Source of the DNA: an uncultured Holophagales bacterium
GTDB lineage: Bacteria > Acidobacteriota > Thermoanaerobaculia > Multivoradales > UBA5704
DNA length: 64,000 bases
Reading direction: 5' to 3'
Assembly: GCA_963842525.1 (NCBI GenBank)
Contig: CAWJGT010000006.1
Coordinates: 64,001-128,000, forward strand
Shown here: piece after piece, positions 14,841 to 59,865 of the stretch
How the letters are laid out: every line of letters begins with the position of its first letter
Position numbering within the stretch: the stretch's first letter is position 1
Program-made: the position numbers and the translations under genes
Notes under the pieces: model-generated
Seen by the model: the letters and a program-made list of their open reading frames with translations, nothing else
Told to the model about the DNA's origin: nothing
Databases searched by the model: none

Positions 14841-15050
14841 CTATCCCAACCGCGCGGCGAGCGGCATGGCCGCTGGCGGCGGGCTCTCCAGGGCCTCGAA
14901 CCCCTGCTGCAGAGCCGCAGTCCGCATCGTGTCCTGGCAGACCTGGCACTGGGCCAGCAGGTGGCGCACGACCTCCGCGTTCTCCGGGCGGGTGAGCTCC
15001 GCCCGCAGGAATTTTTCCATCGTTCTCTGCGAGAAATGGACACTCATCAT
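14841..15050 (-). CDS. Stand-alone zf-HC2/ZAS-like zinc-finger microprotein
   Basis: 69 aa with H5...H30-LLAQ-C-QV-C; GAGGAGG RBS; aligns with the N-terminus of the 56569..57909 TPR protein. Confidence 0.7.
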   Translation of the reverse strand: MMSVHFSQRTMEKFLRAELTRPENAEVVRHLLAQCQVCQDTMRTAALQQGFEALESPPPAAMPLAARLG

Positions 15051-55699: not shown

Positions 55700-55786
55700 A
55701 ATGGCGCCAGAGGCTCTGGCGCGGGCCTTGCTATTTTCCTCCCTGGGGAGGATTTGTCCTCCCGGCACACCGAGAAGGAGGTGCTC

Positions 55787-56323
55787 ATGCAGGTTCCCCT
55801 GGAGATTTCGACCAAGCTGATCGAGCTGTCCCCCGACCTTGAAGCCGACCTGCGGCGGCGTGCGGCCAAGCTGGAGCGCTTCTACGACCGGCTGACGAGC
55901 TGCCGGATCGCCGTCGAACGCGAGAGCTTGCACCACCAGGACGGCGGCCCGTTCCGGGTCCGCATCGATATCACGGTCCCCGGCACCGAGCTGGTCGCCA
56001 AGAAGCAGTCGGAAGACCTGAACGTAGCGATCCGCGACGCCTTCCAGGCCGCCGAGCGCCAGGTCGAAGAGTTTTCCCAGCGCCGGCGCGGCGAGGTCAA
56101 GACCCCGGTGCTCCCGCCGGAGGGCAACGTCGTCAGGATCTTCTCCGAGGACGGGTTCGGCTTCATCACCGCCGAGGACGGCCGCGAGGTCTACTTCCAC
56201 CGCAACGCCGTGCTCGACGACTTCGAGGCTCTGGAGGTCGGCTCGCGCGTCCGGTTCGCGGAGGAGCAGGGGATCGAGGGGCCTCAAGCGAGCACGGTCA
56301 GCCTCGTCGGAAAGGGGGACTGA
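55787..56323 (+). CDS. HPF/RaiA ribosome-associated domain fused to a cold-shock domain
   Basis: KLERFYDRLTSCRI...VRIDITVPG...AIRDAF, then GFGFI...EVYFHRNAV...GPQASTV; AAGGAGG RBS. Confidence 0.9.
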   Translation: MQVPLEISTKLIELSPDLEADLRRRAAKLERFYDRLTSCRIAVERESLHHQDGGPFRVRIDITVPGTELVAKKQSEDLNVAIRDAFQAAERQVEEFSQRRRGEVKTPVLPPEGNVVRIFSEDGFGFITAEDGREVYFHRNAVLDDFEALEVGSRVRFAEEQGIEGPQASTVSLVGKGD

Positions 56324-56568: not shown

Positions 56569-57909
56569 TCAGCAGCCGGCGCCGCAGCGCCGGAGGACGG
56601 TCGAGACCTCCTCGACAAGCCCGAGCGTGAGCTGTTCCATCTCGGCCGCCTTCTGGAAGACGATGAGGGCCGCGAGCGCCTCCTGCGGGACCTCGCAGGA
56701 CCGGAAGATGGGCAGGATCTCTCCGGCGAGCCGCTTCACGTCGGCGGTGCGGCCCGTCCGGGCGTAGAGCGCCGCGAGATCGAGCGACGCCAGGGCGACG
56801 TCGAAGGCGATGTGGTCCGTGGTGAAAGCCTCTTTGACATACAGGAAGATCTCCTCGGCTTCGGCGGTCTGCCCGAGCGCGGCGGCGATCCGCCCCTCGA
56901 GCCAGCGCAGGCGGAGCAGGTCGTGCGGCGTGCCGGCCTGTTCCAGACGGCGCCACGCCTCCGGGATGAGTGCGGCGGCTTCGTGCACCTCGCCGCTGTC
57001 GAAGAGGCAGCTCAGGAGGTTGAAGTGGCTGGCGACCACGGCCCGTGGTTCTTCGCGGCCGTCGAGCAGGTCGAGGCCCAGGCGATAGCAATCTGCGCCC
57101 GCGTGGAGATCGCCCTTGTACTGCAGCGCCAGGCCCTTGGCCACCACGGCCAGTCCCTGCAGGTGAAGCTCTCCGACCTCCCGAAGGAGGGCGATCGCCT
57201 CGTCGAAGAGCTGGACCGATTCGTCGAAGCGGCGCTGGCCGCGGCGCAGGGACCCCTTGAGCTCCAGGATCAGGGCCTCGTCCAGCGGGTCGAGCCAACT
57301 GTTGGCGAAGTACATCCCGGCCCTGCGGAAGGCCTGTTCGGCCTGGCGGAAGTCCGCGAGGACGCGCAGGCAGTTGCCGAGCCACGCCCAGGCCCTCGTC
57401 TGAATCGCCTCGACCGCGCCCGGGCCGTAGAGGTCCGGATCGAGGTCCTCGGCGATCTCCAGGGCCAGGCGCAGCTCCTCTTCCGCCCTGCGGGGCTCCA
57501 CCAGCACCGTCCACCGGGCCTCGTCGACGAGGAGCTCGCACAGGCCCCGGGTCCGGTAGCGGCGGTCGCCGGCGATCCGGTGGCGGACCTCTGCGAATCC
57601 CTCGCCCCTCAGCTCGTGCCAGAGCTCTTGCGCCGTGCCCCGTTCGCGCTGGATCGACGCCCTCCGCTCGGCCGCCGCCGGGCACATCTCCGCGAGAGCC
57701 CCCTGGAGGAGGCCCCGGTACCCACTCTCGGCCTCGGCCATGGCTCGAAAGCTCACCGGACCCTCCCGGGACGAGAGGAGCCGGAGCAGCCGCTCCTCGC
57801 AGGGGCGGCAGGTGACCAGATGACGCTGGAGAGCCCAGCTCCCTTCCTGCGGGAGGCGGTCGTTCAGGAACTTCTCGAGCGTTGCGCTGTCAGGGTGCCA
57901 GTCGCTCAT
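56569..57909 (-). CDS. TPR-like helical-repeat protein with N-terminal ZAS/zf-HC2 zinc finger
   Basis: H5...H30-LVT-C-RP-C; repeats such as AWAWLGNCLRVLADFRQAEQAF, LKGSLRRGQRRFDESVQLF, LEGRIAAALGQTAEAEEIF, ALASLDLAALY. Confidence 0.82.
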   Translation of the reverse strand: MSDWHPDSATLEKFLNDRLPQEGSWALQRHLVTCRPCEERLLRLLSSREGPVSFRAMAEAESGYRGLLQGALAEMCPAAAERRASIQRERGTAQELWHELRGEGFAEVRHRIAGDRRYRTRGLCELLVDEARWTVLVEPRRAEEELRLALEIAEDLDPDLYGPGAVEAIQTRAWAWLGNCLRVLADFRQAEQAFRRAGMYFANSWLDPLDEALILELKGSLRRGQRRFDESVQLFDEAIALLREVGELHLQGLAVVAKGLALQYKGDLHAGADCYRLGLDLLDGREEPRAVVASHFNLLSCLFDSGEVHEAAALIPEAWRRLEQAGTPHDLLRLRWLEGRIAAALGQTAEAEEIFLYVKEAFTTDHIAFDVALASLDLAALYARTGRTADVKRLAGEILPIFRSCEVPQEALAALIVFQKAAEMEQLTLGLVEEVSTVLRRCGAGC

Positions 57910-57982
57910 GAAAAAGCCCTCCTGCGGGCAGACATCTTCACTTCTTCACTTCAGCGTAAATCTTACCTACGGATGCCGTCCC

Positions 57983-58282
57983 TCACGGCGTTCCGGGTGG
58001 TCTGGGCGGCCTCCCGAACGGATCGATCCCGACCCCTTCCCAGCCGCCGGGACTCGTGGGGTCGTGATGGACGGGCCCGGCGTTGTCCATCTGGAAGACA
58101 CCCAGCAGATCGGCGATCGGCTGGGCGAGCTTGCGGATGACGAGCTCGAGCTGCTGGATGCCGATCGAATCCCCTTCCCGGAGGCTCCGTCCTGCCGGAG
58201 CGGCCTCCGCCGCGGGCAGGAAGAGCAGTCCGAGAGCGAGCACCAGACCGGCCACGAGACGAACCAGAGTGCTGCGTGACAT
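57983..58282 (-). CDS. Small secreted protein / putative peptide precursor (99 aa) with C-terminal EGVGIDPFG motif
   Basis: AAGGGAG RBS; Sec signal peptide ending AEA-A; helical middle; low-complexity tail GGWEGVGIDPFGRPP. Confidence 0.72.
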   Translation of the reverse strand: MSRSTLVRLVAGLVLALGLLFLPAAEAAPAGRSLREGDSIGIQQLELVIRKLAQPIADLLGVFQMDNAGPVHHDPTSPGGWEGVGIDPFGRPPRPPGTP

Positions 58283-58549
58283 CGGTTCTCCCTTCGTGAC
58301 GGCGCAATCAGCAACCACTACGGCCGCTGCGGCCGTCACTTGCAGTTGCCCCGGTCCCTGGGAGCCGGCTCTCGAACGTAGACCAGAGATACTGACTCGA
58401 CTATACATCTATCCAGCCGGTAAGAGAAGCGGGTGCTTGCCCCGCGCGCTTGCCCCGGTTCCCGGTCTTGCGCTCGTGGAACAGAGATGATGAGATAGTT
58501 GGTCACAAATATGGCCCGCAGGAGGGGCTGCCCCGAAAGGAGGCGTACG

Positions 58550-59413
58550 GTGAGTGAAATCGAGAGTCGCGGCTACGTTCACCCCGATGTCCTGGTCTCC
58601 ACGGATTGGGTGGCGCAGCATCTGGACGATCCCGGCGTGCGGATCGTGGAGTCGAACGAGGACCCGCTCCTCTATTCGACCGGGCACATTCCCGGTGCGG
58701 TGGAGGTGGATTGGACCCGGGATCTGAACGATCCGGTGCGGCGCGACTACCTGGGCCGGGACGGGTTCGAGCGCCTGATGCGGCGGATCGGGGTGACGCC
58801 GGATACCACCATCGTCCTCTACGGCGACCGCAACAACTGGTGGGCCACCTACGCCTACTGGGTGTTCCAGCTCTTCGGGCACGGCAAGGCCAAGATCATG
58901 GACGGCGGCCGGATCAAGTGGGTCAAGGAGGAGCGGCCCCTGACGCGTGACGTGCCGGGCTACGCCGAGACCGGCTACCAGACCGCCGAGCGGGACGACG
59001 AGCGGATCCGGGCCTTCCGCGACCAGGTGCTGCACCACGTGGAGGGACAGGGGCGGATGATCGACGTGCGCAGCCCCCAGGAGTATTCGGGCGAACGGCT
59101 GCACATGCCGGAGTATCCGAACGAGGGCGCCCTGCGCGGCGGCCACATCCCCGGCGCGGCCAACGTCCCCTGGGCGCGGGCGATCAACGCCGAGGACGGC
59201 ACCTTCAAGACCGCCGACGAGCTGCGCTCGATCTACGAGGGAGAGGCGAAGCTCCAGAAGGACGACGACGTCATCGTCTACTGCCGCATCGGCGAGCGGA
59301 GCAGCCACACCTGGTTCGTGCTCACCCACCTGCTGGGCTACCGCCAAGTCCGCAACTATGATGGGAGCTGGACGGAGTGGGGCAACCTGGTGGGAGTCCC
59401 CATCGAACGCTGA
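58550..59413 (+). CDS. Two-domain thiosulfate/3-mercaptopyruvate sulfurtransferase (SseA/CysA-like)
   Basis: [24 protein letters not shown], active-site [17 protein letters not shown]. Confidence 0.95.
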
Positions 59414-59424
59414 GGCCGCAGCAC

Positions 59425-59865
59425 ATGCCCGAAATGCCCGAGAAGCTGGCCCGCACCGTGGAGACCCTGGGGCTCGTCTCCGACCGGGCGGATCGCATCC
59501 AGCTCCTGATCGACATCGCCGACCGTTTCCGGGAGGTGCCGCCGCGCATCGCGCAGCGGCCCTTCCCGGAGGAAAGCCGGGTGCCGGCCTGCGAGTCCGA
59601 GGCCTACGTCTGGGCGGAGCCGCGGCCCGACGGCACCCTGGACTTCCACTTCGCGGTCGAGAACCCGCAGGGCGTCTCCGCGAAGTCGATGGCGGTCATC
59701 CTGGGGGACAGCCTCTCGGGAGCGCCGCTCGAGCAGGTCGCCGCGGTCCCCCAGGACGTCGTCTACAAGGTGTTCGGCAACGAGCTCTCCATGGGGAAGT
59801 CGATGGGCCTGATGGGCATGGTCTCGATGATCACCAACCTGGCCAAGAAACGCCTCACCGCCTAG
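59425..59865 (+). CDS. sufE: SufE-family sulfur acceptor protein
   Basis: RVPACESEAYVW with the conserved Cys; FAVENPQG; directly follows the sulfurtransferase. Confidence 0.8.
   Translation: MPEMPEKLARTVETLGLVSDRADRIQLLIDIADRFREVPPRIAQRPFPEESRVPACESEAYVWAEPRPDGTLDFHFAVENPQGVSAKSMAVILGDSLSGAPLEQVAAVPQDVVYKVFGNELSMGKSMGLMGMVSMITNLAKKRLTA

What the first reader, a model, noticed from the sequence alone, without database searches (positions are those of the whole stretch)
56569..58282. Candidate peptide-signalling pair: secreted precursor with a GxGIDPxG tail upstream of a ZAS-finger TPR protein
Seen: a 99-aa ORF with a Sec signal, an amphipathic helix and a short terminal motif (GGWEGVGIDPFGRPP), 73 bp upstream of and co-directional with a 446-aa protein with no evident signal or TM segment, made of an H...HxxxCxxC finger plus TPR-like repeats and no catalytic domain. 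Known: RRNPP/Rap-Phr quorum sensing pairs a TPR receptor with an adjacent small secreted pro-peptide, and ZAS fingers bind ECF sigma factors. Inference: a possibly undescribed peptide-responsive anti-sigma-like regulator outside Firmicutes; a RiPP-like precursor is the alternative. The stand-alone finger at 14841 hints at a wider family.
Basis: inference. Interest (0 to 1): 0.75.

Follow-up and report, generated by a model that had tools for sequence, protein, structure and literature searches.

The report
Secreted motif peptide with zinc-finger TPR partner
A small exported protein with a conserved glycine-proline tail sits beside a cytoplasmic zinc-finger repeat protein in almost every relative examined, which suggests an undescribed peptide-sensing switch in soil Acidobacteria.

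Summary
On the minus strand, a 99-aa signal-peptide ORF (57983-58282) lies 73 bp upstream of a 446-aa soluble protein (56569-57909). That protein has an H5/H30/C34/C37 finger and a TPR superhelix.

The pairing is not chance. 44 of 45 orthologous loci from Thermoanaerobaculia MAGs carry a small signal-peptide ORF directly upstream, ending in E-G-x-G-phi-(D/C)-P-x-G. Of 79 finger-TPR genes found, 50 are preceded by such a peptide gene, in at least five paralogue clades. A further 27 are preceded by an ECF sigma gene. One locus reads peptide-sigma-finger/TPR.

The peptide family has 224 cluster representatives, no Pfam or NCBIfam name, and some members with 2-4 tandem motif copies. A co-varying leader hairpin with no Rfam match precedes the peptide gene.

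The pair meets the five-point in-silico RRNPP signature. It differs in its anti-sigma-type finger in place of a DNA-binding or Rap domain, in its diderm phylum, and in having no sigma gene in cis. Binding is inferred only: co-folding gave weak support (0.53 against 0.00 for controls).

Verdict: a new variant of known kinds. The mechanism is unproven.

The parts
58289..58347 (-). Conserved leader hairpin just 5' of the small ORF. The outer stem is GUGACGGC/GCCGUCAC here. The apical part is of the CC-R-NGG-U-GG type. The hairpin ends 2-5 nt before the Shine-Dalgarno.
   Evidence: MFE -29.9 kcal/mol, z -3.07. Covariance model R1 scores 39.9 bits here, though this copy was in the training set. On 33 structure-aligned leaders, 88.4% of cells pair against 25-48% when the partner is slid; 9 of 14 pairs show double changes; 0 of 500 shuffles reach the observed covariation. 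No Rfam family matches.
58288..58294 (-). Shine-Dalgarno AAGGGAG of the small ORF
   Evidence: Read from the sequence. The same GAAGGAG-type site is aligned in 56 leaders.
57983..58282 (-). Small exported pro-protein, 99 aa, stop codon included. Signal peptide is about aa 1-27, amphipathic helix aa 39-66, disordered Pro/Gly tail aa 67-99.
   Evidence: The homologue P0122 is 55% identical. A profile of 45 family members finds 224 cluster representatives at E<=1e-3. No Pfam or NCBIfam family matches.
58013..58036 (-). Conserved motif G-V-G-I-D-P-F-G (aa 83-90), preceded by E82. The family consensus is E-G-x-G-phi-(D/C)-P-x-G.
   Evidence: G83, P88 and G90 are invariant in 45 of 45 sequences. 128 of the 150 best profile hits carry the strict motif.
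57910..57982 (-). 73-bp intergenic spacer with the AGGAGG ribosome site of the large ORF
   Evidence: Folds of this spacer across loci show no conserved helix that hides the downstream ribosome site.
56569..57909 (-). Soluble 446-aa protein: an N-terminal zinc-finger anti-sigma-type domain plus a TPR superhelix
   Evidence: 411 homologues at E<=1e-3 among the 8000 candidates scored, all named ones from Thermoanaerobaculia or other Acidobacteriota.
57799..57897 (-). Finger H5 ... H30-x3-C34-x2-C37
   Evidence: Invariant in 32 of 32 homologues. Pfam zf-HC2 matches 29 of 32 orthologues but not this copy at E<=1. The only PDB sequence hit is the anti-sigma factor DdvA, 8rlz, at E 0.28.
56587..57597 (-). 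TPR superhelix, about aa 105-441
   Evidence: AlphaFold2 helices 105-441, with pLDDT mostly above 90. Foldseek matches LGN/Pins TPR (3sf4, E 3.7e-7), Rap proteins (4gyo 4.7e-6, 4i1a, 8rsv) and MalT domain III.

Best explanation
The two genes form a cognate signalling pair of a class-wide, unnamed family.

The first gene makes a Sec-exported pro-protein with no globular fold. Its only strongly conserved part is a nonapeptide-like unit, E-G-x-G-phi-(D/C)-P-x-G. That unit, or a fragment containing it, is proposed to be the ligand.

The second gene makes a cytoplasmic receptor. Its C-terminal TPR superhelix is proposed to bind the ligand. Its N-terminal H-x24-H-x3-C-x2-C finger is an anti-sigma-type output domain that would hold an ECF sigma factor encoded elsewhere in the genome. 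Ligand binding would change how tightly that sigma is held.

Shown here: the gene pair, its conservation, the motif, the paralogues wired to ECF sigma genes, and the TPR and finger folds. Inferred: export and processing, peptide-TPR contact, how the peptide meets a cytoplasmic protein (re-import, as in RRNPP systems, is the simplest route), and sigma binding by this orthologue.
For: 1. Linkage. 44 of 45 orthologous loci have a signal-peptide ORF of 78-106 aa lying 31-165 bp upstream on the same strand, ending in the motif. L032 is the exception, and L033 was missed by the first regex.
2. Breadth. Of 79 finger-TPR genes detected, 50 have a motif-peptide gene upstream, 27 a sigma gene (26 by script, plus L053 whose sigma is cut by the locus edge), 1 neither, and 1 lies at a locus edge. 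On the tree the peptide-linked genes fall in at least five clades. The label needs 4 changes, against a shuffled mean of 23.9 (0 of 500 shuffles as low).
3. Sigma connection. L060 reads peptide (346-636), ECF sigma (717-1250), finger-TPR (1243-2688).
4. Precursor-like anatomy. The helix and linker are poorly conserved and the motif is invariant (mean column identity 31%; G, P and G invariant). There is no globular fold (pTM 0.28). Some members have 2-4 tandem motif units: L005(-), L077, P0237, P0243, P0261, P0249.
5. Distinct motifs within one genome. Nine genomes hold two convergent pairs whose motifs differ. Eight have C-P-H or C-P-V in one pair against D-P-N in the other.
6. Receptor fold. 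The TPR fold matches peptide-binding TPRs, including Rap-Phr complexes.
7. Published signature. All five criteria of the in-silico RRNPP signature are met.
8. Co-folding of the 446-aa protein with residues 28-99 of the small protein gave weak support. The median score was 0.53 and the best of 3 controls 0.00. The mark was reached by 116 of 157 solved complexes and 2 of 215 mismatched pairs, but at 0.60 or under by only 18 of those 157 and by both mismatches. The runs agree in at least 29% of contacts, and the partner pLDDT is at least 37.
Against: 1. Topology. The peptide is predicted to be exported, while the receptor has no signal or TM segment. No peptide importer or processing protease is linked in the window or in the seven loci whose genes I listed. 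The host is a diderm (established knowledge of Acidobacteriota).
2. No sigma in cis. No sigma gene lies near the peptide-linked orthologues. Peptide-linked and sigma-linked paralogues are almost mutually exclusive, and only L060 has both. The peptide-linked proteins may therefore have lost sigma binding.
3. Finger match. The window copy does not reach Pfam zf-HC2 at E<=1, and its only PDB sequence match is E 0.28.
4. Fold similarity is generic. LGN/Pins ranks above Rap.
5. The co-fold score is in the band where, by the tool's own calibration, a pass is more often wrong than right unless the guess was already likely. No interface was returned.
6. In the second peptide family the motif is followed by 24-28 further residues, so it is not always C-terminal.
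7. Many members are rich in His, and the variable D/C position is the only Cys of the mature part. This would also suit a periplasmic metal-binding peptide.
Confidence: 0.42

Rival explanations
1. The genes are co-transcribed but their products do not bind. The small protein is a periplasmic end product, for instance a metal- or redox-buffering peptide that uses the D/C, His and Met side chains around the motif. The finger-TPR protein is merely the regulator of the same stress response, kept in one operon with its target.
For: His makes up 4% of the crudely cut mature parts, and some members carry 7-8 His. In the Cys variants the motif Cys is the only Cys of the mature part. Tails such as C-P-H-G-H-M combine typical soft-metal ligands. 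The divergent neighbours are rhodanese and SufE, which are sulfur-transfer genes, and that synteny is conserved. ECF operons often carry target genes (established knowledge). Two family members give a marginal NCBIfam hit to CzcI, E 0.044.
Against: The invariant residues are G, P and G, not metal ligands. Some members have 0-1 His (L030, L001). In the second family His is replaced by Asn. Tandem repeats of a 9-residue unit and the lack of any fold fit a processed peptide better. Linkage is kept through at least five paralogue clades while every other neighbour changes. The CzcI hit is far below significance.
Confidence: 0.2
2. Export-coupled partner switch. The TPR domain binds the not-yet-exported pre-protein in the cytoplasm, as type III secretion chaperones bind their substrates. 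When Sec export slows, the precursor accumulates and titrates the finger-TPR protein, which frees its partner. The system would then sense secretion or envelope stress, not cell density.
For: This solves the topology problem without an importer. A weak NCBIfam match of the TPR part to the SycD/LcrH chaperone family exists (E 0.016, far below cut-off). The co-fold weak support is equally compatible with it. The logic is known from type III secretion regulators (recalled, not tested here).
Against: No direct evidence. The signal peptide was left out of the co-fold, so N-terminal binding was not tested. Tandem motif repeats and distinct motifs for two pairs in one genome are more naturally read as diversified ligands. 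The strong leader hairpin, and the terminator-like hairpin after the peptide gene in the second family, point to an abundantly made product.
Confidence: 0.13
3. The small ORF is a cis-acting regulatory leader. It would be a Sec-monitoring translation-arrest peptide, with the Pro/Gly motif stalling the ribosome to control translation of the downstream gene. Known export monitors sit upstream of secretion genes in this way.
For: The architecture is the same as in known monitors (recalled): an N-terminal export signal, a conserved Pro/Gly-containing motif near the stop, same strand, directly upstream. The motif is conserved at the amino-acid level while the rest drifts.
Against: Folds from the motif to the downstream start in 46 loci show no conserved helix that hides the downstream ribosome site. 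The motif-to-stop distance varies from 0 to 28 codons, and the spacer from 31 to 225 bp. The second family has a terminator-like GC hairpin plus a T-run between the two genes. In L060 the next gene is a sigma factor. Members with 2-4 motif copies do not fit.
Confidence: 0.06
4. The small protein is the precursor of a ribosomally made, post-translationally modified natural product (RiPP), and the TPR protein helps recognise or regulate it.
For: A short conserved core sits behind a variable leader, and some members have repeated cores. The window also holds a large NRPS/PKS cluster at 19997-46660, so the organism invests in secondary metabolism.
Against: No modifying enzyme, protease or transporter gene is linked in the seven loci whose genes I listed, and the constant neighbour is the finger-TPR gene. 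The core has no Ser/Thr/Cys-rich or other typical modification pattern. The NRPS/PKS cluster is 10 kb away, beyond unrelated genes, and is not syntenic in related loci.
Confidence: 0.04

Closest known systems
RRNPP peptide quorum-sensing pairs of Firmicutes and their phages (Rap-Phr, NprR-NprX, PlcR-PapR, AimR-AimP)
   Same: A small Sec-type pro-peptide gene lies next to a 250-500-aa cytoplasmic receptor with C-terminal TPRs and an N-terminal output domain. All five in-silico signature criteria of PMC10075063 are met. The TPR fold aligns with Rap structures at E 5e-6 to 1e-4. The conserved short unit sits in the C-terminal part of the pro-peptide.
   Different: No sequence-family membership: there are no RRNPP Pfam or NCBIfam hits. 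The output domain is a zinc finger of anti-sigma type, not an HTH or a Rap helix bundle. The pro-peptide gene lies upstream of the receptor. The pro-peptide carries a long amphipathic helix. The host is a diderm acidobacterium. No importer is known. A structured leader RNA is present. No paper in the library combines RRNPP with Acidobacteria.
Zinc-binding (ZAS / zf-HC2, class I) anti-sigma factors such as ChrR and RsrA
   Same: The finger has the H...H-x3-C-x2-C ligand spacing (the pattern is recalled). zf-HC2 matches 29 of 32 orthologues. The protein is soluble, like ChrR, which also has a C-terminal sensor domain (Casas-Pastor supplement, passage). Paralogues sit directly downstream of ECF sigma genes.
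   Different: The sensor domain is a ~340-aa TPR superhelix rather than a cupin. The peptide-linked orthologues have no sigma gene in cis. The sigma-linked paralogues mostly have H-x4-C-x2-C spacing. None of the 16 'tetratricopeptide' mentions in the stored, truncated supplement of ECF classification 2.0 describes a soluble zinc-finger-TPR anti-sigma factor.
ECF42-type sigma factors with a C-terminal TPR extension
   Same: A TPR domain is used as the regulatory module of an ECF sigma pathway (PMC7826278 and PMC8999054, passages).
   Different: There the TPR is fused to the sigma factor itself. Here it is fused to an anti-sigma-type finger, and no peptide partner is described for ECF42.
Export-monitoring arrest peptides (SecM, VemP, MifM class; recalled)
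   Same: A small ORF with an N-terminal export signal and a conserved Pro/Gly-containing motif near its end lies directly upstream of another gene.
   Different: No conserved downstream RNA switch is seen. Motif-to-stop distance is variable. Repeated motifs occur. Terminator-like hairpins lie between the genes in one family. The downstream gene is a regulator, not a secretion component.

Membership tests
RRNPP quorum-sensing pair (in-silico signature of PMC10075063) | Pro-peptide is small (10-100 aa) | tested here: met
   99 aa. Family members are 78-106 aa.
RRNPP quorum-sensing pair (in-silico signature of PMC10075063) | Pro-peptide is exported by the Sec pathway | tested here: met
   Judged by heuristics only, since no SignalP was available. 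The n-region is basic, the hydrophobic core has KD(15) 2.6, and an AxA-type site is present. The median KD(13) is 2.37 over 59 family members. The model shows helix 3-21.
RRNPP quorum-sensing pair (in-silico signature of PMC10075063) | Receptor is 250-500 aa with TPRs in the C-terminal part | tested here: met
   446 aa. The TPR Pfam hits are below gathering score in this copy but occur in 32 of 32 orthologues. The AlphaFold2 superhelix matches Rap and LGN.
RRNPP quorum-sensing pair (in-silico signature of PMC10075063) | The two genes are direct neighbours | tested here: met
   73-bp gap, and 44 of 45 orthologous loci.
RRNPP quorum-sensing pair (in-silico signature of PMC10075063) | Receptor output domain is an HTH or a Rap-type N-terminal bundle, with sequence homology to known RRNPP receptors | tested here: not met
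   The N-terminus is an H/H/C/C finger. No RRNPP family appears in Pfam or NCBIfam. The paper's own filter discards receptors with domains not seen in reference RRNPP receptors.
RRNPP quorum-sensing pair (in-silico signature of PMC10075063) | The mature peptide is re-imported and binds the TPR groove | not testable with these tools
   Only a co-fold with weak support is available: 0.53 against a best control of 0.00, and no interface was given. No importer lies in the window.
ZAS / zf-HC2 class I anti-sigma factor | Zinc-ligand pattern H/C ... H-x3-C-x2-C near the N-terminus (pattern recalled) | tested here: met
   H5, H30, C34 and C37 are invariant in 32 of 32 homologues.
ZAS / zf-HC2 class I anti-sigma factor | Match to the Pfam zf-HC2 model (PF13490) | tested here: inconclusive
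   The window copy has no hit at E<=1. 29 of 32 orthologues hit at E<=0.01, best 1.2e-7. The PDB sequence hit is DdvA at E 0.28.
ZAS / zf-HC2 class I anti-sigma factor | Encoded next to its ECF sigma factor | tested here: not met
   There is no sigma gene beside this gene or the 44 peptide-linked orthologues. The feature is met only by paralogues, 27 of 79, and by L060.
ZAS / zf-HC2 class I anti-sigma factor | Binds and inhibits a sigma factor | not testable with these tools
RiPP precursor | Precursor gene clustered with modifying enzyme, protease or transporter genes | tested here: not met
   None in the gene lists of seven loci or in the window. The constant neighbour is the finger-TPR gene.
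Export-monitoring arrest peptide | A downstream RNA structure hides the next gene's ribosome site and is opened by a stalled ribosome | tested here: not met
   No conserved structure of that kind in 46 spacers. Distances are variable, and terminator-like hairpins occur in one family.

The most novel reading that the evidence does not exclude
This would be a peptide-gated anti-sigma factor, a diderm (Acidobacteriota) counterpart of RRNPP quorum sensing. A Sec-exported precursor is cut to a ~9-residue E-G-x-G-phi-(D/C)-P-x-G pheromone. The pheromone returns to the cytoplasm, docks in the TPR superhelix and makes the fused zinc finger release, or capture, an ECF sigma factor. The family would have radiated into several orthogonal peptide/receptor pairs per genome, and a dedicated leader RNA hairpin would tune peptide output.
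Probability: 0.25. Interest if true: 0.88.

Novelty: new variant of a known kind. Interest (0 to 1): 0.72.

Why it matters
Peptide pheromone systems with cytoplasmic TPR receptors are treated as a hallmark of Firmicutes and their phages. ECF sigma pathways are thought to be gated by membrane anti-sigma factors, proteolysis, partner switching or phosphorylation. A soluble anti-sigma-type protein whose sensor is a TPR domain, tied class-wide to a secreted motif peptide, would join these two paradigms. It would also extend peptide signalling to abundant, mostly uncultured soil Acidobacteria.

Even if the peptide proves not to be a pheromone, three unnamed elements are now defined and testable:
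- a peptide family with 224 cluster representatives;
- a finger-TPR family with several paralogues per genome;
- a co-varying leader hairpin.

The short conserved motif makes binding assays with synthetic peptides straightforward.

Tried and rejected
1. Word-based homologue search with the 99-aa protein alone found only one relative. The family appeared only through synteny and a profile.
2. Pfam, NCBIfam and the ESM Atlas give no name for the small protein. The marginal hits (DctQ 0.006, CzcI 0.044) are treated as noise, and the Atlas hits are unnamed Acidobacteriota clusters at 0.88-0.89.
3. RNAalifold on the MAFFT alignment of leaders found only the 4-bp apical stem, because the stems were out of register. 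A hand-drawn structure, a covariance model and realignment were needed. That alignment leans towards the structure.
4. The sigma-70 promoter scan found nothing upstream of the pair. By eye, TAnnnT-like boxes lie about 100-125 nt upstream, but this was not tested. No ECF-type promoter was established.
5. The arrest-leader idea was rejected as the main reading.
6. Co-variation of peptide motif with receptor residues was not attempted formally. D/C is close to a single event in the orthologue clade, and H/N changes about three times. That is too few independent contrasts.
7. The model R1 hit inside the TPR gene (57113-57170, 21 bits, E 0.059) and other hits at E above 0.01 were treated as chance.
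8. The literature search found no description. There were 0 papers for Thermoanaerobaculia + sigma factor + peptide, 0 for RRNPP + Acidobacteria, and 0 for zf-HC2 + TPR + anti-sigma. For some searches I read the search listings only. I read passages of PMC7826278, PMC8999054 and PMC10075063, and passages of the truncated supplement of PMC7826278. Parts of that supplement that were cut could still hold a matching ECF group.
Full report
WHAT IS THERE. The window is 70% G+C. On its minus strand, between a plus-strand HPF-cold-shock fusion gene (55754-56323) and a plus-strand rhodanese-SufE pair (58499-59865), lie two genes with their own ribosome sites.

The first gene is a 99-aa ORF (58282 down to 57983). 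The second is a 446-aa ORF (57909 down to 56569), 73 bp further on.

The small protein has a basic n-region, a 15-residue hydrophobic core (Kyte-Doolittle 2.6) and an A-E-A/A-P site. A predicted amphipathic helix spans residues 39-66. The tail is Pro/Gly-rich and unstructured, and it holds E-G-V-G-I-D-P-F-G.

The large protein has no hydrophobic segment (maximum KD(19) 1.22). It carries an N-terminal H5 ... H30-x3-C34-x2-C37 finger, followed after a disordered stretch by an all-alpha TPR superhelix (pLDDT 83.6).

IS IT MORE THAN CHANCE? The large protein has 411 homologues at E<=1e-3 among the 8000 candidates scored. They are 50-76% identical over the full length, and every named one is from Thermoanaerobaculia or other Acidobacteriota MAGs. 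H5, H30, C34 and C37 are invariant in 32 of 32 aligned.

The small protein alone finds just one relative (55% identity, same tail). Synteny reveals the family. A scan of species-representative genomes returned 78 loci. Of the 45 orthologous loci (46-59% identity), 44 carry a signal-peptide ORF of 78-106 aa on the same strand, 31-165 bp upstream, ending in the same kind of motif. L032 is the one exception, and L033 was recovered after widening the pattern.

Aligned, these 45 small proteins share only 31% mean column identity. Even so, G83, P88 and G90 are invariant, and the unit reads E/D-G-x-G/S-phi-D/C-P-x-G.

A profile of them finds 224 cluster representatives (E<=1e-3; 70 at <=1e-10) among 1.84 billion proteins. 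Of the 150 listed, 128 carry the strict motif, and most of the others carry near variants or are truncated. None has a Pfam, NCBIfam or Atlas name.

Conversely, 61 ORFs in all loci and the window meet the motif-near-stop filter. I read 60 of them as lying directly upstream of a finger-TPR gene or operon.

THE WIDER FAMILY. A census found 79 finger-TPR genes in the loci and the window.
- 50 are preceded by a motif-peptide gene.
- 27 are preceded by a ~177-aa ORF that Pfam identifies as an ECF-type sigma factor (Sigma70_r2 plus r4_2). This count includes L053, whose sigma gene is cut by the locus edge.
- 1 is preceded by neither.
- 1 lies at an edge.

The census missed some orthologues whose reading frame runs on or is cut (for example L011, L015, L029, L044, L045). 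These were counted only in the direct upstream check.

On a maximum-likelihood tree the peptide-linked genes form the large orthologue clade (39 rows), a second clade of 8, a pair (L066, L070), a long-branched pair (L005 minus strand, L077), and L073 beside the sigma-linked clades. The peptide label needs 4 changes against 23.9 for shuffled labels. The backbone is unresolved, so the order of events is unknown.

Classical H-x3-C-x2-C spacing goes with peptides and H-x4-C-x2-C with sigma genes, with three exceptions.

The second clade lies 2.7-4 kb from the orthologue, convergent with it, in nine genomes. It has its own peptide family, whose motif is of the K-E/D-G-x-G-phi-D-P-N-G type followed by 24-28 more residues. 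In eight of those nine genomes the two co-resident peptides differ at both variable motif positions: C-P-H or C-P-V in one against D-P-N in the other.

One locus, L060, reads motif peptide, ECF sigma, finger-TPR in a row, followed by two more sigma genes and two more finger-TPR genes. Some precursors hold two to four tandem copies of the unit.

A CIS ELEMENT FOUND ON THE WAY. The ~55 nt before the peptide gene's Shine-Dalgarno form a long imperfect hairpin. It is seen in most fam1 loci, in fam2, and in L066, L070 and L077. The stems differ between lineages while staying complementary: GGCAGG/CCUGCC in most, GUGACGGC/GCCGUCAC in the window, and GCGGUCC/GGACCGC in fam2. The apex keeps CC-R-NGG-U-GG.

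After realignment of 33 leaders to a hand-drawn structure, 88.4% of cells pair, against 25-48% with slid partners. Nine of 14 pairs show double changes, and no shuffle of 500 reaches the observed covariation. The alignment was fitted to the structure and most rows were in the training set, so this is supportive rather than conclusive.

High-scoring matches occur only in front of peptide genes, and Rfam has no such family. In fam2 a terminator-like GC hairpin with a T-run separates the peptide gene from the receptor gene. Both features suggest a strongly and separately expressed small gene.

HOW IT MOST LIKELY WORKS. Several things are shown: a conserved pair; an exported-looking precursor with no fold and one conserved short unit; a soluble partner built from an anti-sigma-type finger and a peptide-binding type of fold (Foldseek: LGN/Pins, Rap-Phr complexes, MalT domain III); and paralogues hard-wired to ECF sigma genes.

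From this I infer a ligand-receptor pair in which the TPR domain reads the motif peptide and the finger acts on a sigma factor encoded in trans. The pair meets the five published in-silico criteria for RRNPP systems.

Co-folding of the receptor with residues 28-99 of the small protein gave weak support:
- median score 0.53, and the best of three controls 0.00;
- the mark was reached by 116 of 157 solved and 2 of 215 mismatched pairs;
- at 0.60 or under, it was reached by only 18 of those 157 and by both mismatches;
- at least 29% of contacts were shared between runs, and the partner pLDDT was at least 37;
- no interface was reported.

The weak points are these:
- Topology: an exported ligand and a cytoplasmic receptor, with no linked importer, in a diderm.
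- No sigma gene lies beside the peptide-linked orthologues.
- The window copy gives a sub-threshold zf-HC2 signal, although 29 of 32 orthologues match.

RIVALS.
- A periplasmic metal- or redox-active peptide that is merely co-transcribed with its regulator fits the His-rich linkers, the single Cys or Asp, and the sulfur-transfer neighbours. It does not fit the invariant G/P/G, the His-poor members or the tandem units.
- A secretion-coupled partner switch would solve the topology problem but has no direct support.
- An export-monitoring arrest leader is disfavoured by variable distances, the absence of a conserved downstream RNA switch, and terminators between the genes.
- A RiPP precursor is disfavoured by the absence of any linked enzyme.

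COMPARISON AND NOVELTY. The system works like an RRNPP pair on paper. It is not a member by homology or by output domain. It looks like a ZAS anti-sigma factor at its N-terminus, but it lacks the defining neighbour.

I found no description in the searched literature. Three searches returned nothing. The ECF classification paper and the stored part of its supplement do not list a soluble zinc-finger-TPR anti-sigma factor.

I rate this a new variant of known kinds, of clear interest. The family-level facts are solid, the mechanism is open, and a short synthetic peptide makes it directly testable.

Noticed in passing
window 14841-15050 (-) and 14462-~14830 (-): A stand-alone 69-aa finger protein with H-x4-C-x2-C spacing, as in the sigma-linked paralogues. 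It has GC3 0.87, a GAGGAGG ribosome site, and BLASTP E 3e-4 to the N-terminus of the 446-aa protein. It lies directly upstream of a single-domain rhodanese. The finger-TPR pair also neighbours a rhodanese (58499-59413), so both finger genes of the window sit beside sulfur-transfer genes.
   Followed up: partly
window 58289-58347 (-); 55 related loci (alignments A3, A6): A conserved, co-varying hairpin in the 5' leader of the peptide genes, with no Rfam match. It is a candidate new cis-regulatory or stabilising RNA.
   Followed up: yes
L008 6697-6860, L011, L013, L015, L021, L033 (minus strand, between second-family peptide gene and its TPR gene): A GC-rich hairpin followed by a T-run (terminator-like) between the peptide gene and the receptor gene of the second pair. 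It suggests a short abundant peptide transcript with partial read-through.
   Followed up: no
L005 7117-7389 (-), L077 2244-2555 (+); proteins P0237, P0243, P0249, P0261: Family members with two to four tandem copies of the motif unit in one precursor.
   Followed up: partly
related loci, ~150-220 nt upstream of the peptide start, at the divergent rhodanese gene (e.g. L008, L012, L027); weaker in window ~58480-58505: A very conserved DNA stretch of the type TTTGTGACCAAT..TATCA(C/T)CA lies at or just inside the start of the divergent rhodanese gene. It may be an operator, a leader or a conserved N-terminal extension.
   Followed up: no
window 19997-46660 (+): A run of very large ORFs (1024, 1437, 2665 and 3875 aa) that look like an NRPS/PKS assembly line. 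One carries a ketosynthase-like stretch found in the motif scan. It is not syntenic with the pair in related loci.
   Followed up: no
window 55754-56323 (+): A fusion of a ribosome hibernation factor domain (Ribosomal_S30AE) with a cold-shock domain. It is also found near the pair in L011 and L029.
   Followed up: no
L011 3971-6445, L015 4001-6445, L029 4001-6418 (+): In three loci the orthologue's reading frame runs on to 805-824 aa instead of ~450. This could be a C-terminal extension, a fused gene or a missing stop.
   Followed up: no
L060 717-6947 (+): A cluster of three ECF sigma genes and three finger-TPR genes in 6 kb, headed by a motif-peptide gene that lacks the leader hairpin.
   Followed up: partly
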